NCBI GenBank assembly: GCA_028286645.1
Contig: JAQBRF010000004.1
Span: forward strand, 18,830 to 82,829
Direction: 5' to 3'
DNA: 64,000 bases
DNA from: Candidatus Nomurabacteria bacterium
GTDB taxonomy: Bacteria > Patescibacteriota > Minisyncoccia > Phycocordibacterales > UBA5272
Position 1 is the stretch's first letter; every line of letters begins with the position of its first letter. Below are positions 14,866 to 63,239 of this stretch, piece after piece. A program made the translations under genes and the position numbers. The notes under the pieces are model-generated. The model saw only the letters and a program-made list of their open reading frames with translations. It ran no database searches and was not told the DNA's origin.

Positions 14866-15420
14866 ATGACGAAACCAATTCTTACGATTGTCCCGCAGCT
14901 CGAAGTAAGAAGGGGTGGAGGAGAACCTCCTCCGCTCCTTGATAAACAGCTTCGGGTGGATGAGACTCCGCCAGCGGCGGCTGATCAAGCCGAGGCAGAG
15001 CCTGATTTCCAAGGAAAGGCAACATCAAGCCCTGACGACGTCCAATCCTTGGGCGATGTTTCAGAGGCCAGTGATGCAGAATCGGCTCAGGTTTCTCCCG
15101 GCGAATTGTGGCGAAAAGATCGCGAGGAAGCATGGAGACTTTACCAGGAAAGTAAAGCGCGCATCAGCCTATCGGATCCGATAAAGTCAGGGATTCCAGC
15201 GGAGTCGGTGATCATTTATTGGACTGACTCGGAGCCGCGGACAAAAATGACCGGCGAAGATGTGATCAATGAAAGTCTCGAGCGCGTAGAAGGAGATCGG
15301 TTCGTAGAGATCAGCACTACAGGAGAATCGAAAAAAGGTGTATGCTTCATTTTCACCTATTCTCACCGGTTCCCGTTTTTCAGGTTTTTCGCACCTGAGG
15401 TCTGCGAAATAAAAAAATAA
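14866..15420 (+). CDS. Hypothetical acidic low-complexity protein, high-GC cassette
   Basis: GGAGGAtttATG. Terminator CCGCGGCTGGAGGGCCGCGG + T-run at 15431-15462. Confidence 0.4.
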   Translation: MTKPILTIVPQLEVRRGGGEPPPLLDKQLRVDETPPAAADQAEAEPDFQGKATSSPDDVQSLGDVSEASDAESAQVSPGELWRKDREEAWRLYQESKARISLSDPIKSGIPAESVIIYWTDSEPRTKMTGEDVINESLERVEGDRFVEISTTGESKKGVCFIFTYSHRFPFFRFFAPEVCEIKK

Positions 15421-15554
15421 GACAGAAATTCCGCGGCTGGAGGGCCGCGGTTTTATTTTTTCACATATCCTTTTTTGAATGTTGATGGTTATAGTATATT
15501 AATTAAGTACTGTTCTGTTTTTTCTTAACCGTTTCATTTTTAATAGAAGAGAAA

Positions 15555-15740
15555 ATGTCGGCAATAAAGAGACCTAAGTCCCCAGTTTTTCCTGAGGGAG
15601 ACGTGCTTCATATCGACGGACGGCTCCTCCAAACGCATAATGGACACAAAGCTACGCCTCCCCCAAAAGGAGGGGATGATTTTCCTGCTGTGCGAGTTTC
15701 TCCAAGCGGTCAAAGTGTCTACCGTTTCCGCCCGAAATGA
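15555..15740 (+). CDS. Hypothetical small protein, high-GC cassette
   Basis: Followed by the terminator GTGCGCAGCGCC-tac-GGCGCTGCGCAC + T7 at 15751-15786. Confidence 0.3.
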   Translation: MSAIKRPKSPVFPEGDVLHIDGRLLQTHNGHKATPPPKGGDDFPAVRVSPSGQSVYRFRPK

Positions 15741-15822
15741 AAGAGGCCAAGTGCGCAGCGCCTACGGCGCTGCGCACTTTTTTTAACTCGCCCTTAAATA
15801 CTCATTTGATATACTAACAACT

Positions 15823-35600: not shown

Positions 35601-38600
35601 AACGTTAGCGTAACTCCAGCTGTTACTAGTCTTGTAAATATTGGGAATTTCAATTCCATAGCAGGTGAGTTCAATAATACTAGTTCTGATGGCGGTTCTA
35701 ATTTATCTTCTCTTGCCTATGGCATCAAAGTATCTAACACGGCTACTCTTGCTACGGCTAACGCTAGTGATCTTTATGGCGGATTCTTTAATGTTTCTGG
35801 TACAGCCACTAATGCCTACGGCCTTAAGGTAAATGTAATCGGGTCTACAAATAATCATGGTATGCTCATAAGCTCAGTTTCAGGAGGAGCTAGCAATTAT
35901 GGTTTGCGTATCGACACCGTGGCCGCATCCTCTACTAACTATGCGCTTTATTCAGGTGCATTAGCGCAAAGCTATTTTTCAGGCAATCTTGGTATCGGTA
36001 CAACTTCTCCAACTGAAAAACTCTCCGTTGCCGGCAACGGCCTATTTGACGGAGTAGTAACAGCATCAAATTTCTTTGCGACTTCCACCACCCCATCAAC
36101 ATTTATAAATGCTTCCACTACTAACCTAACAGTCTCAGGAAACCTATATAGTACTAACCAAATTACAACCACAGAAACAGTAACTAATTCTTCCACTACC
36201 AACCAAACAACTTCTGGTAACTCCTACTTCTCTGCTTTAACTTCCGGCTCTATCCCATTCATTGGTGCAGGAGGATTACTATCCCAGAACAACTCTAATC
36301 TCTTCTGGGACAACACGAATGCGAGGTTAGGGGTGGGAACGAGTACGCCAGTTAACGCTTTAACTGTGGTGGGTAATGGATTATTAACAGGAAGCTTAAC
36401 AGTAGGGAACGGAAGTACTAATGCCATAGTAGATATTAATGGTCTTTCATCAAATAGTGCTTTGCTTAGATTCTTGCGAAGCGGTACGGAAGCAGGAAGA
36501 ATAACATTTGCGAATAGTGCAGATATGACTTTCCAACTTGGTTCTAGTCCAGCAGAAATGATGAGAATTACTTCTGCGGGTAACATTGGAATCGGTTCCA
36601 CCACTCCTGGATCAAAGCTTTCTGTTACTGGTGCTTCTGGCAGTATTGCACCATTATTTACAGTCGCCTCATCAACGAACTCTGTACTATTTAATGTATT
36701 AGCGAATGGAAATGTTGGGATAGGAACGACCACCCCCCTTGCTGCTCTCCATGTCACAACCCAAGTGGCCGATATTGCTTACTTTAATAGCTCCATAAGT
36801 CCGCTGGGAAGATTATTTATAGCAGCACGTGGCGGACCAAATGGAGAGATAGAAATAGGAAACCATGATGGAGCTTACAGATTGCTGGACGTTCAGGGTT
36901 CGATACTTACATTTGGTGTGAGTGGTACTGAAAAAATGAGGATTGACGCATCTGGTAATATTGGTATCGGATCGACAACTCCAACGGCGAAATTCACAGT
37001 GTCCGGAGATAATGGAGCCGTGTCATCAGACAGCTTGGTGGTTTTCGGAGATAATTTAAATTCTGTAACAGGAGCTACCACAGCGAAACTTACAATTGGT
37101 AATATAGACGGTAATAGTGAACTTTTGATTGGGCAAGACGGAACACATAACTTGGTAAATGCTTGGATATATAATGCGACAGCGGCTAGTGGTTACGGAC
37201 TTATCGCAGGATATGGCGGAAATAATAATATAGTTCTCCAAAGGGACGGAGGAAATGTTGGAATAGGAGCTACCACTACTCCATCTGCTCGTCTTTCTAT
37301 AAAAGGAATAGGCACTACTACTGGTATCAATTTTCAGACTACTAACTCAAGCAATGTTCCGTTGTTTAGTATTTTAGATAATGGAAACGTGGGGATTGGA
37401 ACTTCTAGTCCAATAGCAAATTTACAAATTGGAAACACTACATCAGCCTCAACCGCTTCCCCAGTCACTTTATCACTTGGAGGAACCTTCAGTTCTGTCG
37501 CTGGGGCTAACTTGAAATTAAAATTATTCGATAGCGGAGCAAACGTCTACGGTCTCGGAGTATCAGCGAATTCTCTCGATGTATCTTCAGCGGCGGCATT
37601 AAATTTTTATACAAACGCAAGTACCACTCCAAGCATGACAGTGGCTGCGACAGGAAATGTTGGAGTTGGAACAGGCGCTCCGGTTTCGACCTTAAACGTA
37701 AATCAGTTAGCTGGAACTACCAAAGGCATATCCATTACAGGAGATGAAACATTTGCATCAGGTAATGGGTCTATAACATCTGGAGTGAGAATTGCCCTTG
37801 GGGTATCAAGAGCTAATAATCGTCAATTATGGCTTGGAGATATTGCCGCTTATGGAAGCTCGACAGCGGGACTTTTTAGATATAACACAGGGCAAACAGG
37901 CTGGGGAGGATTTGATGTGGTGAGTGGCGATGGTTCTAGTAGATTTCTTACAGTTGCGGGTAGTGACACTTCTAATGTTGGAATAGGATACAACGGATCA
38001 CCTGTTGACCCGACTTTATACACAGGAAAGTTAAATGTATTTTCTTATAACGATTCAGCTGCTTCTACTACCTTAAACTTAAGACATTTCGGAACAGCAA
38101 GTGGAAATTATTTAGATATAAAAAATAGCGCTGGAACCTTGCTGGCGACATTTACAAATGCTGGAAATATGGGAATAGGTGTAACATCTCCGACCTCGCT
38201 TCTATCGATTGCGTCTACTACAGCAAGTGGAGCCACAGGATTATTCTCAGTAGCCAGCTCATCTTCTATTTTTAATATACTTGCTAATGGAAACGTAGGG
38301 ATAGGTACAACAACTTCGATTCAAAAACTTGATGTAAATAGTTCCACATTTTTAGCAAACTCCGTTAATGGAGCATACGTAACAAGTGATAGTGCAGTAA
38401 CTAACAGCGCATATCTGGCTTCCAATGCTTATTATAATGGATCTAGTTGGCAGAAACCTTTTGCTCTTAAATCGGCCATATTTGGTTCAGCTGGTTCAGG
38501 AGCGTCGAAGGGGTTTTATATATATGGATCTGAAAGCACAACAGCCGGCACAATCTCAGACTTTGAAGAAAGGTTTAAGGTCCTTACTACAGGAAATGTA

Positions 38601-41600
38601 ATTATGGGAGTGGGTGCTGGAGGAGGCAACGTCGGCGTCGGCACCACCACCCCCTCCACTAAACTCTCCGTTGCCGGCAATGGCCTATTTGACGGAGTGG
38701 TAACAGCATCAAACTTTGTTGCTACTTCAACTACTCCTTCTACATTTATAAATGCTTCTACTACTAACCATACAAACTCTGGTAACAATTACTTCTCTGC
38801 TTTAACTTCCGGCTCCATCCCATTTATTGGTGCAGGCGGCTTACTAAGCCAGAACAATGCTAATCTGTTTTGGGACAACACTAATGGGAGGTTAGGGGTG
38901 GGGACGACAACGCCAGGATCCCTCCTTACTGTCTCATCTTCCACAGCAACAGGGACTACTGACCTCTTCTCGGTTTCTACATCATCACCAATATTTAACA
39001 TACTTGCGAATGGCAACATCGGAATCGGGACAACAACCCCGACAGACAAACTTTTTGTTTCTGGTACGTTTTCAGCGGGAACAAGTACGCTAAATAACCT
39101 TATTGTTACAAATACTAGCACATCAACATTTGCTGGTGCGGTACAAATTACAAAATCTACAGTGGGACCTACTACCGTATTAACATTGAAAAATGGCCAA
39201 TTTAATGTAGGAGATACTTCAGATATACTTTTCTCTCACGGCAACTTGCAAGCTTTTTCAAAAATTAGCTCATCACTTCCCGGTAGTAATCAGACCCATC
39301 TAGCCTTCTACACTAGTTCAAATACAAACTCTTTAGTTGAAGCGATGAGGATTGATGGAAATGGAAAGGTGGGAATAGGAACATCAAGCCCAGCTAATTT
39401 ACTTCACATATCTGGAAATGGCGATAGTCGAGTGATGTCTGAAACAACAGGGGCAGATACTGTAGGCACTGCGGGTTTTGTTATGAAAGGAGGAGGAACA
39501 AACGCACAATGGCAAATATTTACTAACCGTTCAGATCTTGCCGGAGCTGCAGATAATTTTGCCATTCGTAAAAATGCCGGCACGACAGGAGTAAAGTTGG
39601 TCATTCAAGATAACGGAAATGTCGGTATTGGAACAACCACACCTATTTATTCCTTAGATGTAGTCGGTAATATTCGTACGGCTGGTGCTGCTTCTGGTTT
39701 CATTATGAATAACCGAGCGACAAATCAGACTTCAGCACAATGGTATAGTCCAACAGCTGGAGAAACAAGGCTCTTTGACCATGTTGCAGGATTGGATCGA
39801 TTTACTATAAATTCGTCCGGAAGCGTAGGTATTGGAACTACTACCCCTGGTAACACTTTAAGCGTTGAAGGTTCGGGTAACGTAGCTAGATTCGGCACAT
39901 CGGCAAATGCATTTTCATTCATTCAGGTAGATTCTAATAATGCAACAATTAAGAATGTATTCGGAACGGATATTAGCGGTACTCCCACAGGATTCTTAGG
40001 AACTCTTACCAATCATGATCTCATTCTTCGTACAAATAATACAGAAAAGGTACGTATAACAACTGGTGGAAATGTCGGTATTGGAGTAAGCCCCGCTCTC
40101 GCAAGACTACAAGTAAACGATGGTGGCGGTACTGCTGCGAGTGAAATTTTAAGTTTGCAAACAGGTTACGCAGCTAACAGCGCCCAAAAAGCCTTAACCT
40201 GGAGAGATGGGGTAAATATTACAGGCCAAATAGACACAAGATACGATGGCACATCAATCGATATGGTCTTTGGACATCTTTATAATTCTGGTTATAACAC
40301 AACGGATAGAATGGTGATTAAAGGTACAGGAAATGTGGGTATCGGAACGCTTGCGCCGTTTAGTAGACTACATGTAGCCCAAGATGTAACACAATATTCT
40401 ACATCGGGAACTTTTGCTCAATTGGAAGTTACGGGTGGAACAAATATTAACCAAAGACTGGCTATTGGATATAACACATCTACGAACGTCGGTTTTATTC
40501 AAGCTATAATAAATGGAGTTTCATTTCAGCCGCTTGCTCTCCAGCCGCTGGGTGGTAATGTCGGTATTGCGACATCAACCCCAGGACAAGCTCTTGCTGT
40601 AGTTGGTACCATCCAGCAATCTGCCGCAAAGAGCTGTGCTCTTTCATCGAATGCCTCAGGAGATATCATTTGTACGTCTGACGAGCGTTTGAAAGATATT
40701 GCTGGAATATATAATGGAGGCATCGGACAATTGCTTTCGATTAATCCAATCAGATTCAATTATAAAAATGAATCATACCAGCACGTTGGATTCTCTGCGC
40801 AAAATATCGCATCGGTTCTTCCAGAAGGTGCTCCAATCCAATCTAATGGATTCTATGGATTAGACTCAAATGCAGTACTTGCTCTTACACTTAATTCCGT
40901 GAAAGATATAGCTCATAGAATCGATTTCTCAAATGCTCCAAACTCTGCATCCCTTATTATAGATAACTTAGGAGGAATCATGGCTAAAAACTTTATGACT
41001 GACACCACTTCGTCAGTTGCAGAAAGGTTCCCAGCAGAAGAAGCGGTGGATGTAGGAACTGTAGTGGCATTTGGAGACTCATCATATTCATTTAATGACA
41101 TTCATGCATCATCTACTGACACATACAGCATGTCAGGTGTTAGAAAGGCTCGCACTCAAGGAGAAGCAATTGGTGTGGTCACATCAAATGCCGGACTTAT
41201 AACAGGAACATCAAGCAATGGCGGCGTACCGGTGGTATTTTCTGGACGCACTGTCGTTCAAGTTACGAATGAATATGGCCCAATTCAAAAAGGAGATTAT
41301 TTAACACTTTCTACTACTACTCCAGGAAAAGCTACGAAGATGTCAGGAGAAGGACAATCTCTCGGTGTAGCGGTATCCGCTGATAATGGTTCTGGCAGAA
41401 TCCTTGTAGTACTTAATACTGGATATCAAAAGGTTGATACTAACAGCCGGGCAATTTCTACAAGCGGAATGCTTACCACTGGAAACTTGGATCTTAATGC
41501 CAATGGCGTAGCGATTTTGAATATTAAATCTCTTGCGTCCGCAAACGGCACTTGGTCTATCAATGAAGATGGGCGTATCATCGCAAAGATTCTTTGTCTG

Positions 41601-41894
41601 GAAGATGTATGTATTGATAAAACACAGCTTACAAATCTTCTTAATAATTCTGGCCAAGGCGGAGCTCCTGCTTCTATTCAAAACTCTACTTCAACTCCAT
41701 CAGGGGATGTATATGCAAATGATGTAAATCAGGGAACTCTATATTCCTCATCCACTCCTTCAGGCACGCATAGCGGAATGGTAGCCGGCACTTCTACGGA
41801 GGCCATGCCAGCAATTGATACAGCCCCAATTGTAAGTGAACCGGCAAGCGGGGGTGTATCAGTTGCGCCCACAGATGGGGCAGTAACACCATAA
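29640..41894 (+). CDS. Giant secreted fibre-like surface protein (4084 aa). Signal peptide, collagen-like Gly-X-Y stretch, many N/T/S-rich repeats (GNVGIGTTTP-type), C-terminal intramolecular chaperone/peptidase S74-like domain
   Basis: A single uninterrupted ORF. Signal peptide MKKGIKKCGAKVWVIFFTFILISSFSANSSVHA. Collagen-like GSPGPKGPSGVDGKDGLDGMSGQNGANSQGG. Repeats LLSQNNANLFWDNTNARLGVGTTTP recur x4 or more. C-terminal SDERLKDI...NPIRFNYKNESYQHVGFSAQNIASVLPE matches the endosialidase/tail-fibre auto-chaperone. Confidence 0.85.
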   Translation: MKKGIKKCGAKVWVIFFTFILISSFSANSSVHAAESKILNFPVYPLQSVIRFISFKTFSLYSVSSHAYALAHNLPQFAPTKLSAIPSIKTDELSPLLNIGNSASQNTVILSDAVNELGCELVKFIRINLCAGESNFVTPKLAMNKVDNNDLVIDSAIPRQIAIVGEELHSPLIESIKNFALNLNTATVPKQQPYEEIQNDIPDLKFNFPRLAEFSLLPFKQYSSFATGDNKASAQGISVPVKKSTLPFLDRLSLSVFCKIKSLSGVVDENRCSYDSLAGNFLINNLANLNDGNTQPSTLNSSGATSTSTGSSNTPQDTFTNSGNISKPVYITQYLTKYITLAGSPGPKGPSGVDGKDGLDGMSGQNGANSQGGFGGFINPSSSYVAPTPYVAQSLVGISTIGYLRDTTIEYAKFNYGTANNLSLISPTVDNGVFNGTNIFNGGVRFNDNVDINILTATSSNFLNSSTTNSFANNFSAVNSILGDAIITNANVTNSTTTNQSTTNLNLTNGTTSNQFINNLAVINSTTTNASTTNSYISNLLNDNSTTTNLVVTNASTTNATTTNSFISKLWSTLANITDLIIGNATTTNLFAANATSTNFFSTLARITGLTVDNSVTTNATTTNGYISNLTNDNGNIGNLVVTNASTTNGTTTNSYIANLANTNAVITNATTTNSFIARLWSTLGDITGLNTVNLTATNATSTNFFSTLARITGLTVDNSVTTNATTTNSFIANLTADNAVINNINFGSASSTNSTSTNGFIANLTMNNGTSTNFFTQNLSVGNTNVSGNQTINGTFTVLGTTTLGAATTIVGNILLGTSTSNFITVNGLFNSHLVPAQNITYDLGSPSFYYRTLYVDTITANTVSAVSSTINGTTNSSFSINADNVSADAEDSTLVFFRGLVTPNAVIRWNSISKRLEANMSINVMNETPVTGSTTFSVQGGAGQGTTPLFKLLDNSENTLSYFDQNGSLGIGTSTITSGAKVDVWGNLNVGTSSTPTLFANTATGNVGIGTSTPGSTLTVAGTGLFTSNLSTLGTLGVSGQTTLTTASSTAFTATTLFSTTGTIANLINTNATSSNLFASLGTLGALTVTGQTVLSNASTTNLTVSGNLYSTNQITTTETVTNSSTTNQTTSGNTYFSGLTAGSIPFIGGGGLLSQNNANLFWDNTNARLGVGTTTPGALLTVSSSTATGTTGLFSIATSSNPLLSVLANGIIQLKTGRVNNGVQFIGGVGGSLEFTNSASGVFSAQGNGLGQVTWNGTEVDLGNNFGVAGRFNCVSGSCRTSFNSTNFPVATAQNFFKSNADGNIGMIIAQNSVSQTGDLFQLTDSAGTSVLSTFSASGSLGIGSTTPGSKLSITGTSGATTPLFTVASSTNSVIFNVLANGNVGIGTTTPDQKLVVEGNNPAIAINNTGSGSGNFPIFILRHAGADKSYLYWDNANSFTKFSSAGALRFDTNGLGNTNMTLLANGNLGIGTTTPSTKLSVAGNGLFDGVVTASNFVATSTAPSTFTNATITNASTTNTTGTGLTFTNGLFLNSLASNGTLNITGQTVLANASTTNLSISGNLYAPNFLGTTGSFSTLSATNASTTNFTNSNNSYFSALTAGSIPFIGGGGLLSQNNANLFWDNTNARLGVGTTTPIAKLSVSDATNYGNVTADQTKFGSYYLYSPQAVITGTSTAPAGTYIGVNSDLNGSNISLTSSSNFIGTNLSSIKGSVSGSPVVNLNLNANTGLGFVSTAAIEGNANVTPVYISGDQLFFNSYGGQFTNTSGNGVSTTPTSNIYGINASSNSNLARGSHYGGNFIAAGTASSNYGVRVASVSGAGSNYGLMIDTVAASSTNYALYSGALAQSYFAGNVGIGTLSPTGKFSIITSPSGMIDAPAMDILSTHAIGSVTTSGVRTFTMASSTYNPSATLSNSSVSGTNVIIANGNTQNINLNNFTLSDVTGVGARNALTVNGYTATLTGSPVINDTNPDGLGQVITVAGFSGNVSVTPAVTSLVNIGNFNSIAGEFNNTSSDGGSNLSSLAYGIKVSNTATLATANASDLYGGFFNVSGTATNAYGLKVNVIGSTNNHGMLISSVSGGASNYGLRIDTVAASSTNYALYSGALAQSYFSGNLGIGTTSPTEKLSVAGNGLFDGVVTASNFFATSTTPSTFINASTTNLTVSGNLYSTNQITTTETVTNSSTTNQTTSGNSYFSALTSGSIPFIGAGGLLSQNNSNLFWDNTNARLGVGTSTPVNALTVVGNGLLTGSLTVGNGSTNAIVDINGLSSNSALLRFLRSGTEAGRITFANSADMTFQLGSSPAEMMRITSAGNIGIGSTTPGSKLSVTGASGSIAPLFTVASSTNSVLFNVLANGNVGIGTTTPLAALHVTTQVADIAYFNSSISPLGRLFIAARGGPNGEIEIGNHDGAYRLLDVQGSILTFGVSGTEKMRIDASGNIGIGSTTPTAKFTVSGDNGAVSSDSLVVFGDNLNSVTGATTAKLTIGNIDGNSELLIGQDGTHNLVNAWIYNATAASGYGLIAGYGGNNNIVLQRDGGNVGIGATTTPSARLSIKGIGTTTGINFQTTNSSNVPLFSILDNGNVGIGTSSPIANLQIGNTTSASTASPVTLSLGGTFSSVAGANLKLKLFDSGANVYGLGVSANSLDVSSAAALNFYTNASTTPSMTVAATGNVGVGTGAPVSTLNVNQLAGTTKGISITGDETFASGNGSITSGVRIALGVSRANNRQLWLGDIAAYGSSTAGLFRYNTGQTGWGGFDVVSGDGSSRFLTVAGSDTSNVGIGYNGSPVDPTLYTGKLNVFSYNDSAASTTLNLRHFGTASGNYLDIKNSAGTLLATFTNAGNMGIGVTSPTSLLSIASTTASGATGLFSVASSSSIFNILANGNVGIGTTTSIQKLDVNSSTFLANSVNGAYVTSDSAVTNSAYLASNAYYNGSSWQKPFALKSAIFGSAGSGASKGFYIYGSESTTAGTISDFEERFKVLTTGNVIMGVGAGGGNVGVGTTTPSTKLSVAGNGLFDGVVTASNFVATSTTPSTFINASTTNHTNSGNNYFSALTSGSIPFIGAGGLLSQNNANLFWDNTNGRLGVGTTTPGSLLTVSSSTATGTTDLFSVSTSSPIFNILANGNIGIGTTTPTDKLFVSGTFSAGTSTLNNLIVTNTSTSTFAGAVQITKSTVGPTTVLTLKNGQFNVGDTSDILFSHGNLQAFSKISSSLPGSNQTHLAFYTSSNTNSLVEAMRIDGNGKVGIGTSSPANLLHISGNGDSRVMSETTGADTVGTAGFVMKGGGTNAQWQIFTNRSDLAGAADNFAIRKNAGTTGVKLVIQDNGNVGIGTTTPIYSLDVVGNIRTAGAASGFIMNNRATNQTSAQWYSPTAGETRLFDHVAGLDRFTINSSGSVGIGTTTPGNTLSVEGSGNVARFGTSANAFSFIQVDSNNATIKNVFGTDISGTPTGFLGTLTNHDLILRTNNTEKVRITTGGNVGIGVSPALARLQVNDGGGTAASEILSLQTGYAANSAQKALTWRDGVNITGQIDTRYDGTSIDMVFGHLYNSGYNTTDRMVIKGTGNVGIGTLAPFSRLHVAQDVTQYSTSGTFAQLEVTGGTNINQRLAIGYNTSTNVGFIQAIINGVSFQPLALQPLGGNVGIATSTPGQALAVVGTIQQSAAKSCALSSNASGDIICTSDERLKDIAGIYNGGIGQLLSINPIRFNYKNESYQHVGFSAQNIASVLPEGAPIQSNGFYGLDSNAVLALTLNSVKDIAHRIDFSNAPNSASLIIDNLGGIMAKNFMTDTTSSVAERFPAEEAVDVGTVVAFGDSSYSFNDIHASSTDTYSMSGVRKARTQGEAIGVVTSNAGLITGTSSNGGVPVVFSGRTVVQVTNEYGPIQKGDYLTLSTTTPGKATKMSGEGQSLGVAVSADNGSGRILVVLNTGYQKVDTNSRAISTSGMLTTGNLDLNANGVAILNIKSLASANGTWSINEDGRIIAKILCLEDVCIDKTQLTNLLNNSGQGGAPASIQNSTSTPSGDVYANDVNQGTLYSSSTPSGTHSGMVAGTSTEAMPAIDTAPIVSEPASGGVSVAPTDGAVTP

Positions 41895-57313: not shown

Positions 57314-57467
57314 ACTTTTATCTTACAACAAATTGAATGAAAAAGAAAAATCCAATTAACCAAGTACTATAATTCCTAGCTATTTTTACTATTTTGCTTC
57401 GCATCTTAATAAATCTGTAAACTTACTTGGATTGCATATAAATAAAAACACCCTCGAAAATCGAGGG

Positions 57468-57731
57468 TCATTCTACAAGCTCTACACTGACGAATTCGTA
57501 CTTGTCCGTTGCGTTACGAGCCAGCTGTTCCACCTCAGTTGGTGTTAGCTGTTCGTCTACATCCGCCGTGCAAGTTATCACGTGCGGTCTTTCCGCGAAA
57601 GGACTTTCCTTCGGATCGTGGTAAGTCGCTATCCACCTTCTTTTCCCTTCCGGCGGATTATTCGGAAGGGATTGGTCCTGTGAAAAGGTTTTCATACTTG
57701 TCTCCGTTACTGTACTCCTTAAAACTAGCAA
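57468..57731 (-). CDS. Hypothetical protein, high-GC
   Basis: Terminator CCCTCGAaaatCGAGGG + T-run directly downstream at 57442-57468. Confidence 0.35.
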   Translation of the reverse strand: MLVLRSTVTETSMKTFSQDQSLPNNPPEGKRRWIATYHDPKESPFAERPHVITCTADVDEQLTPTEVEQLARNATDKYEFVSVELVE

Positions 57732-57812
57732 TTGCAGAAGCGGGAGTCAAGGAAATAAAAAGCCGCCCCTCGTCCGAAGAAAAGGTTTGGCTTTTCTCAG
57801 AACGAAGAGCGG

Positions 57813-58157
57813 TTACCAACTGTAATGGGAAGGGTCGTTGCTCACCGGAATTTCGTGCGCAGGATCGAAACCCCACTTCCTTACTTCGTAATCCCGGAGG
57901 AGAACGAAGTACTTGAGTGAAGGTTTCCCGTCCGGCTCGCAGTGCGCCGGCGATGAGCAGATGATGGTCGAAGGTATAAAACCTGCTTTCCGCCAGATCG
58001 GATCGTATGCCTTCGGCATGAGGTATAGTGGTTCATTGCGATGAACCCACCATTCCACCATGTCTTTTCCGACGCTGTAAGTGCAGCCGCCGATCATGGC
58101 AAGCAGGAAAGCACCCGCTGCCCAACCTTTCAAGTTATCAATCATTTCGCGATTCAC
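57813..58157 (-). CDS. Hypothetical membrane-anchored protein, high-GC, GTG start after GAAGGAGG
   Basis: Driven by promoter cassette copy b (58192-58228). Confidence 0.45.
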   Translation of the reverse strand: MNREMIDNLKGWAAGAFLLAMIGGCTYSVGKDMVEWWVHRNEPLYLMPKAYDPIWRKAGFIPSTIICSSPAHCEPDGKPSLKYFVLLRDYEVRKWGFDPAHEIPVSNDPSHYSW

Positions 58158-58191
58158 TCGGCGCCTCCTTCATTGTAAGCAGAGAAATGTT

Positions 58192-58228
58192 CAATTACTA
58201 ATATATCATATATACTGGTAATTGTCAA
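58192..58228 (-). promoter_or_regulatory. sigma70 promoter TTGACA-17-TATATT with a palindromic spacer (promoter cassette copy b)
   Basis: Minus-strand read: TTGACAattaccagtatatatgaTATATT. Confidence 0.5.
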
Positions 58229-58232
58229 TATC

Positions 58233-58253
58233 TTGCTCCGCGGTAGGGGTATC
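58233..58253 (-). repeat. tRNA 3'-end-like fragment (TTGCTCCGCGGTAGGGGTATC), att-like remnant
   Basis: Similar to the tRNA-Asn 3' end TTGCTCCGTGGGTAGGGATCG. Confidence 0.4.
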
Positions 58254-58479
58254 TTCCACTAGTAAATTTTTGTCGTCACAAAAAATTTCTCGCGGACCGC
58301 TCCTCGCCATTTTTACTGCTGTAAAAATACTACTGCGGACTTTCGATCCCTACACGCATGTGAAGCAGTTCACGTGCTCCACGTAGCTCAAAAAATCAAA
58401 GGCCGCCATTTCTGGCGACCTAAGATTTTACTAGCTCCAAGGGTTGATCACTAGGAGAATTTTTTTTGGAAAAAGAAAA

Positions 58480-58716
58480 CTATGCTATTAACCGGGGGTT
58501 AGGGGGATTAGAATTAGCTAGTTTTTCAAAATCTTCATTACTCATTCCTACATTTTTAGCTAAAGTTTCTGCATACTCAAACCAATCTTTTTGTAAATAA
58601 TTCTTAATGCCTCTGATGGTTTCTTCTCTATAGATCTCATCTTTTAGAAATCGTTCTGGATCACCCTTTACGTCTATTGTCGGTTCCCTATTTTCTTGAT
58701 TTTGATTGAATTGCAT
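58480..58716 (-). CDS. Hypothetical small protein
   Basis: ORF + downstream terminator at 58392-58420. Confidence 0.3.
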   Translation of the reverse strand: MQFNQNQENREPTIDVKGDPERFLKDEIYREETIRGIKNYLQKDWFEYAETLAKNVGMSNEDFEKLANSNPPNPRLIA

Positions 58717-58776
58717 ATATATTGTTTAGTATATATTTAGTGTGGCAAAGTATATAAAGACTTACTACAAGCTTGT

Positions 58777-58798
58777 TTTGCTCCGCACCTGGGACGAT
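58777..58798 (-). repeat. tRNA 3'-end-like fragment (TTGCTCCGCACCTGGGACGATC), direct repeat of 60028-60048
   Basis: 21/22 identical to the copy at 60028. Confidence 0.45.
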
Positions 58799-59209
58799 CT
58801 TTGAACTTACTTGTGGAAAAGACAGGGAATAATCAACTTAGTTTATTAGAAAAAGCAATGTTAGAATATATCTAAAGGAGGGTGGCCCATGAACACCATG
58901 CGGAGTTTGCTTGGCATGATTTGTACTGAAGCATCTGAAGGGATAGGAAAAGGATCTCCGGAAGGAGTTCCTCCGGAAGTCCGGACTAAGTCCACTCTTC
59001 CCCCGATGAAATTCGATTCCGAGCTTTTCTGTAATCCCGACGGAACACCAGACTCAGAAGAGTAATCTCCTGCATCTGTTCTCACGAGAGTGACGAGCAG
59101 GTGCAGGATTTTTATTTTGTGCGGTATGGTGATCAGATGTGTATTTTGAAGATATATAAAAAGAAACCGCCCGAACAGACGCGGTGTCTTTTCGAGCGGT
59201 GGGGCACTT

Positions 59210-59848
59210 TCAGTCGAGTTGCCAGCCTTCGGCGATCATTTCCTTACGGATTTGATCGACGAACTTGGGGCAGAGAAGCGGAATCATGAGCGCCCAGAGT
59301 TCCTTCGCGTGAGCGAGCACCGTAGGGTGCTGGAACATCGCATGGTAGCAATCGAAGTCCTTCTGTTCCCAGTCGCCGTTGTGGTCGATGGTCGAGCAGA
59401 CGAGCGTGTTCGCCGCCGCATCCCATCGATGAGTCTCGATCCGCATGAGGAGATCTTCTCTCCACTGCGGCCAGCCTTCAATGCGACGCTTGATGACGAC
59501 GCGTGCCCCCATCTGAACTGCATATGCGGTGAAGCGCAAGCCCTTCGAGTTAAGGGCTCGGGAAAGAAATTTCGCATTCCTGCCGATAGCGAGAATGCGC
59601 CCGCGCTTGGTACGTTCCTCGGTACTTCCGCGCTTGGTATCGCGAAAGTATAACCACTCGCCGACACGCTGCCCATTGCCACCGATCTCCACCATTTCCA
59701 TCTCGCTCGGATCGAACGGACAGCCGATGATGGGGTCGGTGCTAAATATAGCGACGCCGAGTTGCCGAGCACGAGGGGTGAAATCCACCCCACCCTTGTT
59801 CGCCCACGTTTTCCAATTCCCAGGATTACGGACTTTGCTGATATTCAT
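59210..59848 (-). CDS. Hypothetical protein, high-GC, inside the module bounded by the 58777/60028 direct repeats
   Basis: ORF. No motif recognised. The opposite-strand ORF 59219..59653 is the alternative. Confidence 0.35.
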   Translation of the reverse strand: MNISKVRNPGNWKTWANKGGVDFTPRARQLGVAIFSTDPIIGCPFDPSEMEMVEIGGNGQRVGEWLYFRDTKRGSTEERTKRGRILAIGRNAKFLSRALNSKGLRFTAYAVQMGARVVIKRRIEGWPQWREDLLMRIETHRWDAAANTLVCSTIDHNGDWEQKDFDCYHAMFQHPTVLAHAKELWALMIPLLCPKFVDQIRKEMIAEGWQLD

Positions 59849-60027
59849 GGCAATCCTTCCATTGTTAGGGATTCAAAAGGCATAAATATGCCCAAACCAT
59901 ATTCAAATGACAGTATACCATAAATATGTTAGATGTCAATAGAATGATTATTATGTAGGGATCGCGTCTCGCTTTGCTCGACATCCTACATTTTTATAAT
60001 CACTTCGTTCATTAAAAATGTGGACCT

Positions 60028-60048
60028 TTGCTCCGCACCTGGGACGAT
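60028..60048 (-). repeat. tRNA 3'-end-like fragment, direct repeat of 58777-58798
   Basis: Seen in sequence. Confidence 0.45.
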
Positions 60049-60135
60049 ATCCGATCTGTTTGTTAGAGGAGAAGTAAAAAAGCCCACGAGAAGCGGTTGG
60101 GCTAATCGTGGGCTAGGCTTTCTAGGTAACTTCCG

Positions 60136-60519
60136 TTACCAGCGGCTGGCGCATCGAAAATAACTTTCATAGTACATCTCTTCTTTAACTGTCCGTCCAC
60201 AGAATGAACAGACGGCGCCTGTTTTAAGTGGTTCGTGGTCGACATGCACAAACCTATAGGCATAACGATACATTGCCTCTATCGCTTCCTGGCGTTCTTT
60301 AAAGCTGGGGTGCTCTTTTCCGTCTAGTTGATAATGGGCAACCCACTGCTCATCAACTAGTTCAATGTCACCCATTGGACGTTCACCCCACGGGGTAGCC
60401 TCCCAAAGATTGTAGCGCTGGTTGTGCCCATCTACGTGAACGAGCTCAACTACCCGTGCCACATCCGCCCTCCAAATGTCTTTAAGGCGGAGTGAGACTT
60501 TTTCGGATTCTTTGCTCAC
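60136..60519 (-). CDS. Hypothetical protein, high-GC (GTG start after AAGGAG)
   Basis: SD AAGGAGtggaacGTG. The upstream part of the track ORF is AT-rich and probably not coding. Confidence 0.35.
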   Translation of the reverse strand: MSKESEKVSLRLKDIWRADVARVVELVHVDGHNQRYNLWEATPWGERPMGDIELVDEQWVAHYQLDGKEHPSFKERQEAIEAMYRYAYRFVHVDHEPLKTGAVCSFCGRTVKEEMYYESYFRCASRW

Positions 60520-60583
60520 GTTCCACTCCTTGTGTACAAGATTTAACAAGACTATACAATATAAAAATACTTCTGTCAAAGAT

Positions 60584-60605
60584 GAGCTCCGTGGGTAGGA
60601 CTCCC
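60584..60605 (-). repeat. Degenerate tRNA-Asn 3'-end fragment (GAGCTCCGTGGGTAGGACTCCC)
   Basis: Seen in sequence. Confidence 0.35.
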
Positions 60606-60756
60606 TTTTCCCTTTGGTCGAAACTCACTATTTTTATTGTCATTCCATTTCTTAAAAATAGGAGCCTTTGGTTCGATCCCAAACTCATAAAGCTAGAAAT
60701 AACAAAAGCCCGACATGAAGTCGGGCTTTTGTTATTTTGCTCCCAATGCTGTCCAA

Positions 60757-60822
60757 GTTCAGAACCCTGAATTGGAGAAGTATAGATATTGAAATGAAAC
60801 AATTTAGTTTTGTATAAAAAAA
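60757..60822 (-). repeat. R2 repeat copy A (~65 bp) immediately after a terminator
   Basis: About 85% identical to 61349-61414. Confidence 0.5.
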
Positions 60823-60858
60823 ACCCACTCGCCGAAGCGAGGGGCTGAAGCGAGTGTT

Positions 60859-61254
60859 TCAGCACTCGATGCTCATATCTTGTACTACCAAAAGTTCGAA
60901 TGGGTCCAGCTCATAAGCTACCATGCTGTAACCCTCTTCGTGACTGTTTTTCTTCGAAACAGTCCACTTGAGAATCGCAACTCCCATGTAAGGATGCTGT
61001 GAAAGCGGAGGAGTGCGGAGACTTTGTATGTCGAGCGTGAGAACGCCCATCGCGATCTGATCGGGATAAACCTGCTTGAGCTCTTCGAGGATCTGCTTTC
61101 GTCCGTAGAGTATGCCGTCTCTGCTAGCATACACGGCATCAGGAGCGTACCCATTACAGAATCCTTCTAAGTCTCCAGCATTCCAGAGTCTAATGGCTCT
61201 GTGATTGAATTCAGTTACTTTTTGAGCAAAAGCAATGTCATAAGGTCCGCTCAT
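60859..61254 (-). CDS. NTF2-like / SnoaL-like (DUF4440-type) protein
   Basis: Fold-typical length and pattern. Terminator at 60817-60844. Confidence 0.4.
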   Translation of the reverse strand: MSGPYDIAFAQKVTEFNHRAIRLWNAGDLEGFCNGYAPDAVYASRDGILYGRKQILEELKQVYPDQIAMGVLTLDIQSLRTPPLSQHPYMGVAILKWTVSKKNSHEEGYSMVAYELDPFELLVVQDMSIEC

Positions 61255-61348
61255 TTATTTCTCCCAGAACATATGCGTAAAAACGCGATAAGCACACACT
61301 ACAATATTAAAATAATAACGTCAACCTCTGGCTCCCTCTACTAAACAA

Positions 61349-61414
61349 ATTCAGAACTCTGAATTGGAGGAATATAAAAATTGAAATGAAACAATTGAGT
61401 TTTGTATAAAAAAG
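61349..61414 (-). repeat. R2 repeat copy B
   Basis: Seen in sequence. Confidence 0.5.
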
Positions 61415-61628
61415 AAAACCCGCTGGCTAGGCGGGGTGGAGATAGGCGCGAAGCCTTCTCACGCGGGGACGTATTCCATTTTGGAGCGCCCCGTGTAGTA
61501 CTGCGTGTTATTTCTGTGGTCGTTGCAGACCTCGTAGAGCGCGATGTGACACGGTAGCCACCCTGAACAATGCTTGTGCTCATTTTTTGCCACCAGTAAC
61601 TTTGCATAGTTAGCTCCTCAGAATATGA
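61408..61628 (-). ncRNA. Short high-GC transcript unit: palindromic consensus promoter (61626-61665) to terminator CCCGCctagccaGCGGG + T-run. Either an sRNA or a small Cys protein
   Basis: SD GAGGAG + ATG at 61607, but the ATG frame is R/S/T-rich and runs through the terminator. An alternative frame gives HKHCSGWLPCHIALYEVCNDH. Confidence 0.3.
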
Positions 61629-61665
61629 CAAATACCAGTATATCATATATACTGGTATTTGTCAA
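61626..61665 (-). promoter_or_regulatory. Perfect 39-bp palindrome containing TTGACA-17-TATACT on the minus strand and aTGACA-17-TATACT on the plus strand (promoter cassette copy c)
   Basis: TGACAAATACCAGTATAT-cat-ATATACTGGTATTTGTCA. Confidence 0.55.
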
Positions 61666-61801
61666 TATGTGGCTCCCTATAGTAAGTAAGTTCAGAACTT
61701 TAAATTGGGTACAAGTTGAGAAAGAGCTGAGGTGCTTGAGCCTAGTAGAAACCATCTTCTCCATTGTATAAAAACAGGAAGTGGCCAATAAATAAAGAAA
61801 T

Positions 61802-61993
61802 TTAACGTTTGAATGCAAAAGACATCAATATGATGATTAAGGCATTAAGAACCACCAACACTAAGACTGTCTGCCATTTTGCTGTAAGTGGATTATTTAT
61901 AATATAAACCGTATAGATTATTGCAACAATCGCAGCACCGAGAAAATTTCCTTTTATCATATTTTTATATTTATTTATTAAATTTATAAACAA
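61802..61993 (-). CDS. Small membrane protein
   Basis: ORF with TM segment. Low support. Confidence 0.25.
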   Translation of the reverse strand: MFINLINKYKNMIKGNFLGAAIVAIIYTVYIINNPLTAKWQTVLVLVVLNALIIILMSFAFKR

Positions 61994-61994
61994 C

Positions 61995-62240
61995 CTATCT
62001 TCTAAACAACTCTGAAAACTTTAACTTGAGAATTCCCAACAAATAAATAATTTCAAGAACACCTAAAGTGTGCACAAAGATAAATAAAATAAACCACAAA
62101 AGTTGGCCTCGTTTTGCTGAATGCCACAACCCAAGTCCTGCCCAAAAAAGACTCCACAGAATAACTAGAAAAAACGTTAGTTGATGTGTGTGTATCCAGA
62201 TGGATAATCCTACTCCTGATGAATTGTTCATATCTTTCAT
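61995..62240 (-). CDS. Small membrane protein
   Basis: ORF, 2-3 TM. Low support. Confidence 0.25.
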   Translation of the reverse strand: MKDMNNSSGVGLSIWIHTHQLTFFLVILWSLFWAGLGLWHSAKRGQLLWFILFIFVHTLGVLEIIYLLGILKLKFSELFRR

Positions 62241-62307
62241 TATACATCTTATTGTTAAAATAGTTCTTAAACCTATTTGGGTGTCATAATAAGCCTTGAT
62301 AAATAAG

Positions 62308-62329
62308 GCTCAAAAAAGTGCTCCGTGGG
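62308..62329 (-). repeat. Duplicate of the tRNA-Asn 3' end (GTGCTCCGTGGGTAGGGATCGG), about 150 bp from the intact gene
   Basis: 20/21 identical to 62474-62494. Confidence 0.55.
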
Positions 62330-62424
62330 TAGGGATCGGTCACAAAACTACTCGCTTTGCTCGAGAAAGTTTCGCGACCCCGTATTCGATCCCTAACGCA
62401 AGCAAAGCAGTTTGCTTGCTCCTT

Positions 62425-62466
62425 TAGAAACGAATTGAAAATACCAGAGAAAGAATCTCTGGTATT
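62425..62466. terminator. Palindromic terminator (ACCAGAGAaagaATCTCTGGT + U-rich) just 3' of the tRNA
   Basis: Seen in sequence. Confidence 0.45.
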
Positions 62467-62475
62467 TTCAATTTG

Positions 62476-62821
62476 CTCCGTGGGTAGGGATCGAACCTAC
62501 GACCAATTCCTTACATTTATCCTAAAGTTTCCTAAAGGGATGGACTATATCATCACCCGTATTTTTACAAATCGAGGGTGCAAGGCGCTTCGGACCAGTT
62601 TTATCTGGCACTACTCCTTTCGGATAGTCTCTACACCTTCCCCCCACTAATTTTGTTTTAAATATTTAAAACAAAATTAGTGGGGGGCTTGGCTCGGTAT
62701 TACCCTCCATCGGTTAGATGGGGAGGGCTTCACCGAATTCACCTTGTTTTTCAATTCACCTTACGATGAAAAGCTGCGTTTATTGCCACAGGGAACTGCT
62801 CTACCGCTGAGCTACCACGGA
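62476..62821 (-). tRNA. tRNA-Asn (anticodon GUU) interrupted in the anticodon loop by a group I intron. Exons 62821..62788 and 62513..62476
   Basis: 5' exon UCCGUGGUAGCUCAGCGGUAGAGCAGUUCCCUGU. 3' exon UAAGGAAUUGGUCGUAGGUUCGAUCCCUACCCACGGAG. Spliced loop is CU-GUU-AA. Acceptor 7/7, D, anticodon (G.U) and T stems all pair. Discriminator is G. Confidence 0.7.
62514..62787 (-). ncRNA. Group I self-splicing intron (274 nt) within tRNA-Asn
   Basis: It follows a U and ends in G. IGS GCAG pairs with exon CUGU including a terminal G.U. P7-forming R element GAGACUA and S element GAUAUAGUC are present. Confidence 0.6.
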
Positions 62822-62894: not shown

Positions 62895-63239
62895 ATGTTA
62901 AAGAGATGCAGTAAGCATGGTGAGACGAAACATTTCAAAAGATTAGATGCAACTTTTCGTTGTGGTAAATGTGCTTCTTTGTGGGTAATAAATAACAGAC
63001 GAAATAAAAAGCAGAAACTAATTAAATTATTTGGAGGAAAATGTATTGTTTGTGGATATGATAAATATGCAGGGGCTTTGGATTTTCATCATACGGATCC
63101 AAAAAATAAATCTTTCGCCTTAAGTGTTAAAGGGCTGTCTTATTCTTGGGAAAGCATTTTAGTTGAAGCGAAGAAATGTATTCTGGTATGCAAAAACTGT
63201 CATGCCGAAATTGAAGCCGACATTAATAAAGTAATTTGA
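62895..63239 (+). CDS. HNH endonuclease (free-standing)
   Basis: CxxC...HH...N...CxxCH pattern: CIVCGY...DFHHTDPKNK...LVCKNCHAEIE. Confidence 0.65.
   Translation: MLKRCSKHGETKHFKRLDATFRCGKCASLWVINNRRNKKQKLIKLFGGKCIVCGYDKYAGALDFHHTDPKNKSFALSVKGLSYSWESILVEAKKCILVCKNCHAEIEADINKVI

What the first reader, a model, noticed from the sequence alone, without database searches (positions are those of the whole stretch)
58230..62500. Array of tRNA 3'-end fragments that look like tandem integration-site remnants downstream of tRNA-Asn
At least five minus-strand 21-22-nt segments start with TTGCTCCG, the reverse complement of a tRNA 3' acceptor end. They are 62308-62329 (near-exact copy of the Asn 3' end), 60584-60605, 60028-60048 and 58777-58798 (a direct-repeat pair, 21/22 identical, about 1.25 kb apart, bracketing the high-GC gene 59210-59848), and 58233-58253. 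Additional TTCGATCCCTA T-arm fragments occur on the plus strand at about 58350 and 62378. The intervening modules carry high-GC small genes, each with its own terminator. This is the signature of repeated site-specific integration into a tRNA 3' end, leaving stacked attL/attR scars. No integrase is present within the window.
Basis: partly seen in the sequence, partly recalled or inferred. Interest (0 to 1): 0.65.

Follow-up and report, generated by a model that had tools for sequence, protein, structure and literature searches.

The report
Recombinase-scar cassette array behind tRNA-Asn
The 5 kb downstream of an intron-split tRNA-Asn gene in this Nomurabacteria (CPR) genome is an insertion hotspot. 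Its repeats are leftover tail ends of a serine-recombinase gene that integrates at tRNA 3' ends, plus copies of a widespread and apparently undescribed tRNA-mimicking hairpin element.

Summary
The repeats are real but are of two kinds, and only one kind is tRNA-derived.

**The tRNA.** It is a tRNA-Asn(GTT) split by a 274-nt group I intron, so ARAGORN misses it. This intron type is already published.

**The array.** Downstream, 62475 to 57390 on the minus strand, lie about eight small modules. Most are high-GC and have their own promoter and terminator. Every junction ends in GGAGC.

**Recombinase tails.** Five clear and two degenerate junctions are not tRNA fragments. Read antisense, they encode the C-terminal tail (LPLVDKFRTLNW… or LRTWDDVR…) of a large serine recombinase family (more than 1,800 homologues, carried in Patescibacteria MAGs). 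Its attP lies inside its own 3' end.
- Of the 120 closest homologues, 98 are fused to antisense tRNA (integrated form).
- 15 of them keep the tail.
- A 9.4-kb circular form exists in two samples.

**E elements.** The truly tRNA-like fragments are the two arms of "E" hairpins. This structured element was found more than 120 times in metagenomes, beside at least 20 tRNA species. It is absent from Rfam.

**Not found.** No recombinase gene lies in the window.

**Verdict.** The enzyme class, the nature of most scars and the E elements were not foreseen.

The parts
62788..62821 (-). tRNA-Asn(GTT) 5' exon
   Evidence: In-silico splicing gives a canonical cloverleaf. ARAGORN misses the interrupted gene.
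62514..62787 (-). Group I intron in the anticodon loop, position 35/36
   Evidence: Rfam RF00028, 70.8 bits, E=5.9e-16. Same intron position as published for Patescibacteria (PMC13011429).
62476..62513 (-). tRNA-Asn 3' exon. Its last bases GGAGC are the junction core.
62433..62473 (-). Perfect 18-bp hairpin directly after the tRNA
   Evidence: pair I6.
62319..62422 (-). E1, a tRNA-flank hairpin element. It has hairpin H, an antisense T-arm (62385-62395 on +), an inner hairpin, and a 20-nt sense copy of the tRNA 3' end (62319-62338).
   Evidence: Exact match to the E pattern, 0 expected by chance. Fold -43.8 kcal/mol, z=-4.8. Aligns with metagenome copies.
62263..62285 (-). Native tRNA-Asn flank motif GACACCCAAATAGGTTTAAGAAC
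   Evidence: The same motif follows the tRNA-Asn terminator in L022.
61802..62240 (-). Low-GC module: DUF5652 gene (61995-62240) and a 63-aa membrane ORF
   Evidence: Pfam PF18893, E=4.9e-17.
61672..61771 (+). Type C scar 3. The + strand reads LPIVSKFRTLNWVQVEKELRCLSLVETIFSIV*, a serine-recombinase tail.
61419..61665 (-). Module: promoter (61637-61665), 44-aa ORF (61459-61593), terminator (61419-61435)
61331..61413 (+). Type C scar 2 (LPLLNKFRTLNWRNIKIEMKQLSFV*)
   Evidence: family D3 (84% identical to scar 1).
60824..61324 (-). Module: TTGACG promoter, SnoaL-like 131-aa gene (60859-61254), terminator (60824-60841)
60739..60821 (+). Type C scar 1 (LPMLSKFRTLNWRSIDIEMKQFSFV*)
60586..60737 (-). 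Hairpin (60697-60737) plus E2, a degenerate E element. Antisense T-arm at 60665-60683; sense tRNA-like end at 60586-60601.
   Evidence: I5, D6.
60075..60579 (-). Module: promoter (60551-60579), roughly 128-aa gene (60136-60522), terminator
60027..60057 (+). Type B scar (LLRTWDDIRSVC*), a recombinase tail variant
   Evidence: D4. Matches tails of P0048 and P0051 and the L042 ORF.
59954..59990 (-). E4, a short remnant of an E element (shares the apical hairpin TCGAGCAAAGCGAG and CGATCCCTAC with E1)
58889..59939 (-). Module: promoter (59912-59939), 212-aa orphan gene (59210-59848), terminator (59168-59181), and a convergent 58-aa ORF on + (58889-59065)
   Evidence: Only one homologue among 5.8 billion proteins, and it too sits in a cassette array (L012).
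58777..58807 (+). Type B scar (LLRTWDDL*)
   Evidence: D4.
58480..58716 (-). 78-aa low-GC gene
58234..58454 (-). Degenerate tail plus core (58434-58454), terminator (58400-58421) and E3 (58234-58380). E3 is a full-length E element whose arms match a CCGCGGA-type tRNA-Asn.
   Evidence: (z=-3.9).
57450..58228 (-). Module: promoter (58200-58228), 114-aa and 87-aa genes, terminator (57450-57468)
57393..57423 (+). Degenerate type B scar marking the distal end of the array
   Evidence: families D4 and D10.

Best explanation
The stretch 57390-62475 is the attachment hotspot of integrative elements that use a large serine recombinase (LSR).

**How the elements integrate.**
- In the free circular element (about 9.4 kb) the attP site lies inside the last 25-45 codons of the LSR gene itself.
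- The LSR gene points against the tRNA. The exchange happens within the shared bases GGAGC(C) at the very end of tRNA-Asn.
- After integration the LSR reading frame runs into antisense tRNA sequence.
- The detached tail of the gene is left at the far end of the insert, next to cargo genes that point the same way as the tRNA.

**What the window holds.** Repeated insertion and loss have left only the far-end parts. These are one- or two-gene modules, each with its own promoter and terminator and each closed by a tail scar (three type C, two type B, two degenerate).

**The tRNA-like fragments.** They belong to a second unit, the E element. It is a structured RNA-like hairpin of roughly 100-250 nt in the copies measured. 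Its outer helix pairs a sense copy of the tRNA's last ~20 nt with an antisense copy. By duplicating the tRNA end plus its native flank, E provides a second landing site. Modules sit directly at the E2 and E3 cores.

**Shown:** homology of the scars to LSR tails; integrated, tandem and circular forms in other genomes; linkage to tRNA-Asn; conserved structure and wide distribution of E.

**Inferred:** the exact crossover position; that the LSR-less modules can be moved in trans; any function of E.
For: **Scars are recombinase tails.**
- The type C pattern hits 53 stretches, almost all in Patescibacteria genomes. tRNA-Asn lies upstream and co-oriented in 11 loci, and the only other tRNA found is one tRNA-Arg.
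- The antisense strand encodes a conserved peptide. Information per codon position is 0.36/0.61/0.26 outside the fixed pattern, as expected for coding sequence.
- Peptide P0004 joins an LSR C-terminus to an intact tail. P0006 joins one to antisense tRNA-Asn. Zinc-ribbon sequence lies upstream in P0008, P0011 and P0021.

**The recombinase family.**
- A full 507-aa LSR (Resolvase + Recombinase + Zn_ribbon_recom) abuts antisense tRNA-Asn in L066, and four type B and two type C junctions lie in the same array.
- Of the 120 closest homologues, 98 end in antisense-tRNA sequence and 15 keep a type C or type B tail.
- L189 and L190 are the same 9436-nt contig in two samples, with a 30-nt terminal overlap and rotated starts. 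This is a circular form with an intact-tail LSR.

**Junction features.**
- TTGAC[ATG] lies 2-6 nt after the core in 14 of 59 sites, against 0.3 expected.
- The window junctions read LP..KFRTLNW, LRTWDD or antisense tRNA.

**E elements.**
- More than 120 metagenome stretches match.
- 73 of 124 copies have a tRNA directly upstream, covering 20 anticodons.
- 23 of 38 predicted pairs show compensatory changes, and one G-U pair is kept in 12 of 13 copies.
- The block 'tail, core, hairpin, E, core' recurs in L045 and L046.
Against: - No LSR gene or LSR body remnant is in the window. The array may be a fossil.
- The circular element has no second 'core + TTGACA' site that would explain how LSR-less modules form.
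- E elements mostly sit beside housekeeping genes with no island. Their link to integration may be incidental.
- Only 2 of 23 well-delimited metagenome E copies are followed by a TTGACA module.
- Three 'hairpin + E' blocks in one array are not predicted by simple tandem integration.
- No recombination has been observed directly.
Confidence: 0.72

Rival explanations
1. Classical tyrosine-integrase genomic islands have stacked at tRNA-Asn. Each fragment is a displaced tRNA 3' end (attR), and the integrase genes were lost.
For: - The tRNA 3' end and E1 form a 20-nt perfect direct repeat flanking about 135 nt.
- The sense copies in E elements begin at the same place in the T-loop in several genomes. 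A T-loop crossover would produce this.
Against: - No tyrosine recombinase was identified in the window. None stood out among the recurrent ORF families of the 53 related loci, and none of the listed recurrent families near 120 E loci looks like a recombinase. Those families were not individually scanned against Pfam.
- Five of the junction repeats are recombinase-gene tails, not tRNA sequence.
- E has conserved internal structure with covariation, which a scar would not keep.
Confidence: 0.1
2. The array is an integron-like cassette system. E hairpins act like attC sites, folded single strands that mimic the double-stranded tRNA end. The tRNA end acts like attI, and modules are inserted one at a time.
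For: - E is an imperfect inverted repeat whose stem reproduces the tRNA-gene end. It has a bulged hairpin on one strand and a variable apical part.
- Modules begin immediately after E cores in the window (E2, E3) and in L045.
Against: - No integron integrase was identified (same partial checks as for tyrosine recombinases).
- The modules carry their own promoters.
- A conserved G-U pair points to RNA rather than DNA structure.
- Most E copies have no cassette next to them.
- Most modules end in LSR tails, not E.
Confidence: 0.07
3. E is a co-oriented tRNA-mimic RNA with a cellular role, for example in 3' processing or as a decoy for enzymes that recognise the acceptor/T-arm helix. It is unrelated to integration, and its presence in the array is a passive consequence of sitting next to the tRNA.
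For: - It is found beside 20 tRNA species in housekeeping contexts.
- Covariation and a conserved G-U pair lie on the tRNA-sense strand.
- A terminator usually follows it.
Against: - Three to four copies lie inside one array, with arms matching different tRNA-Asn variants.
- Modules are inserted exactly at its 3' core.
- No expression data are available.
Confidence: 0.35
4. The similarities arise by chance, or the region is a decayed tRNA gene cluster.
For: The common motif is short (8 nt). One of 100 shuffles reaches the observed count.
Against: - The repeats are homologous to sequences in more than 50 genomes and more than 120 metagenome contigs.
- No second tRNA is present.
- The strand bias is strong.
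Confidence: 0.01

Closest known systems
Large serine recombinase (serine integrase) integrative elements, such as phiC31, Bxb1, A118 and ccr of SCCmec
   Same: The recombinase has the Resolvase + Recombinase + zinc-ribbon architecture. attL and attR share only a very short identity. The element has a circular form and carries an HTH_17 gene that may act as a directionality factor.
   Different: - The target is the extreme 3' end of a tRNA gene. Serine-integrase use of t(m)RNA genes was called previously unreported in PMC7192596 (14 of 297 cases).
- attP lies inside the recombinase's own coding end, so integration truncates the gene.
SSV1-type archaeal integrases
   Same: attP lies within the integrase gene. 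Integration into a tRNA gene splits the integrase gene into two parts flanking the insert. (This description of SSV1-type integrases is from my own knowledge; the review PMC8371274 appeared in the search list but was not read.)
   Different: Those are tyrosine recombinases of archaeal viruses. Here the enzyme is a serine recombinase in bacteria, and only the last 25-45 codons are detached.
Tandem genomic-island arrays and integrase-less cis-mobilisable elements at tRNA genes
   Same: Several units are stacked at one tRNA, separated by repeated junction sequences. Some units lack a recombinase (tandem arrays are described in PMC7192596).
   Different: The units here are single genes of 0.3-1.3 kb with a promoter abutting the junction. 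The junction repeats are recombinase tails rather than tRNA fragments.
Integron cassette arrays
   Same: Small one-gene units lie in one orientation, each closed by a recombination-site remnant. Content is hypervariable.
   Different: No IntI and no attC consensus are present. The modules have their own promoters and terminators. The inferred enzyme is a serine recombinase.
Group I introns in tRNA-Asn of Patescibacteria (PMC13011429)
   Same: The intron occupies the same position (35/36) and is missed by tRNA finders in the same way.
   Different: That paper's text contains no 'recombinase' or 'integrase', and its single use of 'integrative' is in the reference list.

Membership tests
Large serine recombinase integrative element | A recombinase with Resolvase, Recombinase and zinc-ribbon domains is encoded in the element | tested here: not met
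   Not in the window. Present in related arrays and in the circular form (L066, L188, L189).
Large serine recombinase integrative element | attL and attR are hybrids of attP and attB that share only a short core | tested here: met
   The LSR body is fused to antisense tRNA. Tails follow unrelated sequence. The shared block is GGCTCC(C).
Large serine recombinase integrative element | A free circular attP form exists | tested here: met
   L189 and L190 are rotated 9436-nt contigs with a 30-nt terminal overlap and an intact-tail LSR.
Large serine recombinase integrative element | Recombination between attP and attB is catalysed | not testable with these tools
   Needs an in vitro or in vivo assay, or read-level junction evidence.
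Tyrosine-integrase tRNA island | A tyrosine recombinase gene lies at one end | tested here: not met
   None in the window's larger ORFs. None stood out among the recurrent ORF families of related loci, though those were not individually scanned.
Tyrosine-integrase tRNA island | A direct repeat of at least 15 nt of the tRNA 3' part flanks the insert | tested here: met
   True only for E1 (20 nt). The 'insert' between the repeats is about 135 nt.
Integron | An IntI gene, attI, and promoterless cassettes with attC sites | tested here: not met
   No IntI was identified. The modules have their own promoters. Type C repeats do not fold better than shuffles.
Group I intron (RF00028) | Covariance-model score above the gathering threshold, and splicing that restores the tRNA | tested here: met
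   70.8 bits against a threshold of 50. The spliced product is tRNA-Asn.
Any Rfam family, for the E element | A match to a curated covariance model | tested here: not met
   No hit at gathering or at E<=1 in the window. No hit at gathering in six E-bearing loci.

The most novel reading that the evidence does not exclude
The promoter-led one-gene modules are true cassettes that the serine recombinase moves in trans. Each circularised module would rebuild an attP-like site (tail, core, TTGACA). This would be a serine-recombinase analogue of an integron that uses a tRNA 3' end as its docking site. The E element would be a new class of structured tRNA-mimic RNA that sits beside many Patescibacteria tRNA genes and duplicates that docking site.
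Probability: 0.3. Interest if true: 0.85.

Novelty: new variant of a known kind. Interest (0 to 1): 0.72.

Why it matters
- **Mobile elements in CPR bacteria.** Patescibacteria have tiny genomes and few described mobile elements. This points to a very large serine-recombinase family (more than 1,800 homologues). It targets tRNA 3' ends, which serine integrases were thought hardly ever to do. It also carries its attachment site inside its own gene.
- **Annotation.** It gives a simple rule for annotating hundreds of 'short recombinase fragments' and orphan small ORFs in these genomes.
- **Biotechnology.** It offers natural attP/attB pairs of possible use.
- **A new RNA motif candidate.** The hairpin elements beside at least 20 tRNA species are absent from Rfam. 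They could bear on tRNA processing, or on protection of tRNA genes, in organisms with reduced RNA-processing machinery.

Tried and rejected
- **attP in viral contigs.** I scanned IMG/VR for the tRNA-Asn 3' end. All 9 hits lie in annotated tRNA-Asn genes, several inside phage tRNA clusters; the two contigs whose ORFs I read looked T4-like by eye. None is an att site. The type C pattern gave 0 viral hits.
- **Type C repeats as hairpins or attC-like sites.** Their folds are no better than shuffles (z -0.6, -0.3, +0.8). The palindrome AATTCAGA/TCTGAATT is not conserved in other genomes.
- **Type B or C as fragments of another tRNA.** They do not fit a T-arm and acceptor register. Coding periodicity explains them instead.
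- **Protein families for the tail peptides.** Pfam and NCBIfam found nothing.
- **Protein families for the module genes.** Only DUF5652 is above cut-off, and SnoaL_2 is just below it.
- **Synteny with L066.** The AHSA1 proteins are only 24.5% identical, so the two loci are not orthologous.
- **A second core+TTGACA site in the circular element.** None was found.
- **A shared junction upstream of the recurrent 100-codon LSR fragments.** None was found.
- **Motifs in E.** I compared E by eye with ribozyme and group II domain V consensus sequences recalled from memory and saw no convincing match. Rfam also gave none.
- **Literature.** Searches for this recombinase family or for E in CPR bacteria found nothing relevant.

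Full report
**What is in the sequence**

ARAGORN reports no tRNA anywhere in the window. Rfam, however, finds a group I intron at 62521-62804 on the minus strand (70.8 bits). Joining the flanking exons (62788-62821 and 62476-62513) gives a canonical tRNA-Asn(GTT), with the intron between anticodon positions 35 and 36. That is the situation recently described for Patescibacteria (PMC13011429).

The host is a Candidatus Nomurabacteria MAG. Reading the minus strand downstream of this tRNA shows about eight short modules between 62475 and 57390.

- Most modules are 45-58% GC, in a genome of about 33-38%.
- Each has a near-consensus sigma-70 promoter (first hexamers at 61665, 60579, 59939 and 58228) and a terminator.
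- Every junction ends in GGAGC(A/C/T), usually 4-6 nt before the -35 box.
- GCTCC occurs 14 times on the + strand and 3 times on the - strand inside the array.

TTGCTCCG is enriched: 7 copies against 1.62 expected.

- The copy near 62320 is a 20/20 duplicate of the tRNA end.
- The copy at 60586 shares 14 nt with it.
- The copy at 58234 is a tRNA-Asn-type end with a different acceptor sequence.
- The pair at 60027 and 58777 is a perfect 22-nt direct repeat 1250 nt apart, but it shares only the first ~8 nt with the tRNA.
- The plus-strand TTCGATCCCTA copies are real (58342-58353 and 62385-62395).
- Three longer repeats were not noticed (60739-60821, 61331-61413 and 61672-61771, families D2 and D3).

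**The non-tRNA repeats are detached tails of a serine recombinase gene**

A degenerate 37-nt pattern built from the three long repeats and one copy in an unrelated contig (L012) hit 53 stretches in species-representative genomes. Almost all are Patescibacteria. There were no hits in viral contigs.

In 11 of these loci a tRNA-Asn lies upstream in the same orientation, and the only other tRNA found is one tRNA-Arg. The repeats do not fold better than shuffled sequence.

On the opposite strand they translate to a conserved peptide, (W)LP[LI]VDKFRTLNW..I..EL.FSGI…stop. Nothing is conserved upstream of LP. Outside the positions fixed by the search pattern, conservation follows codon periodicity at 0.36/0.61/0.26 bits for positions 1/2/3.

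ORFs recurring near these sites include C-terminal pieces of one protein. Searching with one of them returned three kinds of protein:

- proteins that join this C-terminus to the intact tail (P0004: …HPIGLPIVDEFRTANWAGIKSDLQFSGILGLFPILELQN);
- proteins that join it to the antisense translation of a tRNA-Asn 3' end (P0006: …QPIGLRGQDSNLRPID);
- longer pieces carrying the YYSC…C zinc ribbon.

Locus L066 holds a full 507-aa protein with Resolvase, Recombinase and Zn_ribbon_recom domains. Its last codons run into antisense tRNA-Asn at the contig end. An older degraded copy and six further tail scars lie behind it.

The window's 60027/58777 repeat reads LLRTWDD…. This is the tail variant seen in P0048 and P0051 (…WLRTWDDVR…) and in L042.

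**Integrated, tandem and free forms**

The full recombinase has 1,857 homologues at E<=1e-20. Among the 120 closest:

- 98 end two or three codons after WL, or continue as …Q[GD]SNLRPID. That is antisense tRNA, so these are integrated forms of 498-539 aa.
- 15 keep a type C or type B tail (511-575 aa).
- A few are fused to antisense sequence of other tRNAs.

Two samples yielded the same 9436-nt contig with a 30-nt terminal overlap and different start points. It is therefore a circular molecule of about 9.4 kb. It carries an intact-tail recombinase, an HTH_17 gene, a restriction-modification gene and a 372-aa protein with no Pfam hit on record.

The sequence common to attL, attR and attP is only (G)GCTCC(C). 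This fits a serine recombinase. I infer, but have not shown, that the crossover lies there.

Published surveys regarded serine-integrase use of tRNA genes as previously unreported and in need of proof (PMC7192596). I found no paper on this family.

**The modules**

In an integrated element, the cargo genes next to the tail point the same way as the tRNA and end just before the tail. This is the layout of every module in the window: promoter, gene, terminator, tail, core.

A -35-like TTGAC[ATG] lies 2-6 nt after the core in 14 of 59 type C sites, against 0.3 expected. The same is true directly after tRNA-Asn in L033 and L043.

Its position mirrors the TGTCCA in the tail arm. I therefore suspect it doubles as the second half-site. 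A circularised module would then rebuild an attP-like site and could be moved in trans. This is inference. The circular element has no internal site that would generate such modules, and the window has no recombinase.

Module content is unique to each genome. None of the window's module proteins recurs in the 55 other loci except the 212-aa orphan, which sits in another such array.

**The tRNA-like fragments belong to a different, widespread element (E)**

E1 (62319-62422), E3 (58234-58380), the degenerate E2 (60586-60690) and the remnant E4 share one architecture with copies in L042, L045 and L046. In order, it consists of:

1. an antisense copy of the acceptor 3' strand;
2. a conserved hairpin H (AAGCAAnnnnnnTTGCTT);
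3. an antisense copy of the T-arm;
4. one or two inner hairpins;
5. a sense copy of the tRNA's last 17-20 nt.

E1 folds at -43.8 kcal/mol with z=-4.8, and E3 at z=-3.9.

A 22-base pattern for hairpin H plus the antisense T-arm matches E1 only in the window, with 0 expected by chance.

- In 73 of 124 copies a tRNA lies directly upstream (median 46 nt). These cover 20 different anticodons.
- Some of the remainder follow intron-split tRNA-Asn genes.
- The arms match the neighbouring tRNA.
- Neighbouring genes are housekeeping genes, and none of the listed recurrent families looks like a recombinase.
- RNAalifold on 13 copies gives 38 pairs. Of these, 23 show compensatory changes, and one G-U pair is kept in 12 of 13 copies. 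This places the structure on the tRNA-sense strand and suggests RNA.
- No Rfam family matches.

**How E and the recombinase scars fit together**

In the window, L045 and L046, the block 'hairpin + E' follows a core, either of the tRNA or of a tail. The sequence after E1 (GACACCCAAATAGGTTTAAGAAC) is the same motif that follows the tRNA-Asn terminator in L022, which has no E.

E therefore sits between the tRNA and its native flank, and it duplicates the tRNA end together with that flank. It offers a second copy of the attachment site. Modules begin exactly at the E2 and E3 cores, and at the L045 E core.

Why the window has three such blocks is unexplained, as is why E3 has arms of a foreign tRNA-Asn type.

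**Verdict**

The finding is real and more than chance. The reading 'stacked integration scars at tRNA-Asn' is right in outline. However, the enzyme is a serine recombinase, most scars are pieces of its own gene, and the tRNA-like pieces belong to an independent structured element of unknown function.

I rate this a new variant of a known kind, namely site-specific integrative elements and tandem arrays at tRNA genes. It comes with a possibly new RNA motif attached.

Noticed in passing
window 10000-15800: A second block of small high-GC (45-51%) genes, each with a TTGACT-type promoter and a terminator. No tRNA or recombinase tail is visible. It has its own junction repeat (CACATAAAAACTCTTTTCGAGGAG…TTTTTAGCTTTGGATTT at about 10020, 10608 and 11518) and a duplicated promoter region (about 9370-9440 and 11740-11815).
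   Followed up: partly
window 62895-63239 (+): A free-standing 114-aa ORF with weak, below-threshold HNH-endonuclease similarity lies about 75 nt upstream of the intron-split tRNA-Asn. It may be a homing helper for the intron.
   Followed up: no
window 62640-62687: A perfect 48-nt palindrome inside the group I intron. The independent Logan contig L001 breaks there, and L002 breaks at the 60027 repeat.
   Followed up: partly
window 61626-61664 and 58192-58227: An 18-nt perfect inverted repeat (TGACAAATACCAGTATAT / ATATACTGGTATTTGTCA) overlaps the promoters of two different modules. It could be a shared operator or a bidirectional promoter.
   Followed up: no
L189 and L190 (whole loci): A circular element of about 9.4 kb seen in two samples. 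It carries an intact-tail serine recombinase, an HTH_17 gene, an MmeI-like restriction-modification gene and a 372-aa protein with no Pfam hit on record. A 370-426-aa 'MIDTV…' ORF family, which had no Pfam hit when scanned, recurs in five tail-bearing loci and is possibly the same protein; the two were not compared.
   Followed up: partly
L021, L036, L042, L058, L062, L065; L066:10010-10315: Many loci keep only the last ~100 codons of the recombinase gene, always starting near residue 404 (ITKDDYDKK…), with unrelated sequence upstream. The recurrent breakpoint is unexplained.
   Followed up: partly
L042:4941-5013: A second tRNA-Asn copy whose acceptor halves do not match (5' TCCGCAG, 3' CCACGGA). 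This is the expected product of recombination with a foreign 3' end. A 5' tRNA fragment lies just upstream.
   Followed up: no
L119, L120, L146, L175: Tandem duplicate E elements, each unit being a tRNA-end copy, a hairpin and an E body, about 165-180 nt apart.
   Followed up: no
L042:1630-1745: A type C tail interrupted by an insertion of about 80 nt exactly at the centre of its conserved GTTC|TGAAC palindrome.
   Followed up: no
window 29640-41894 (+): A single 4084-aa ORF.
   Followed up: no
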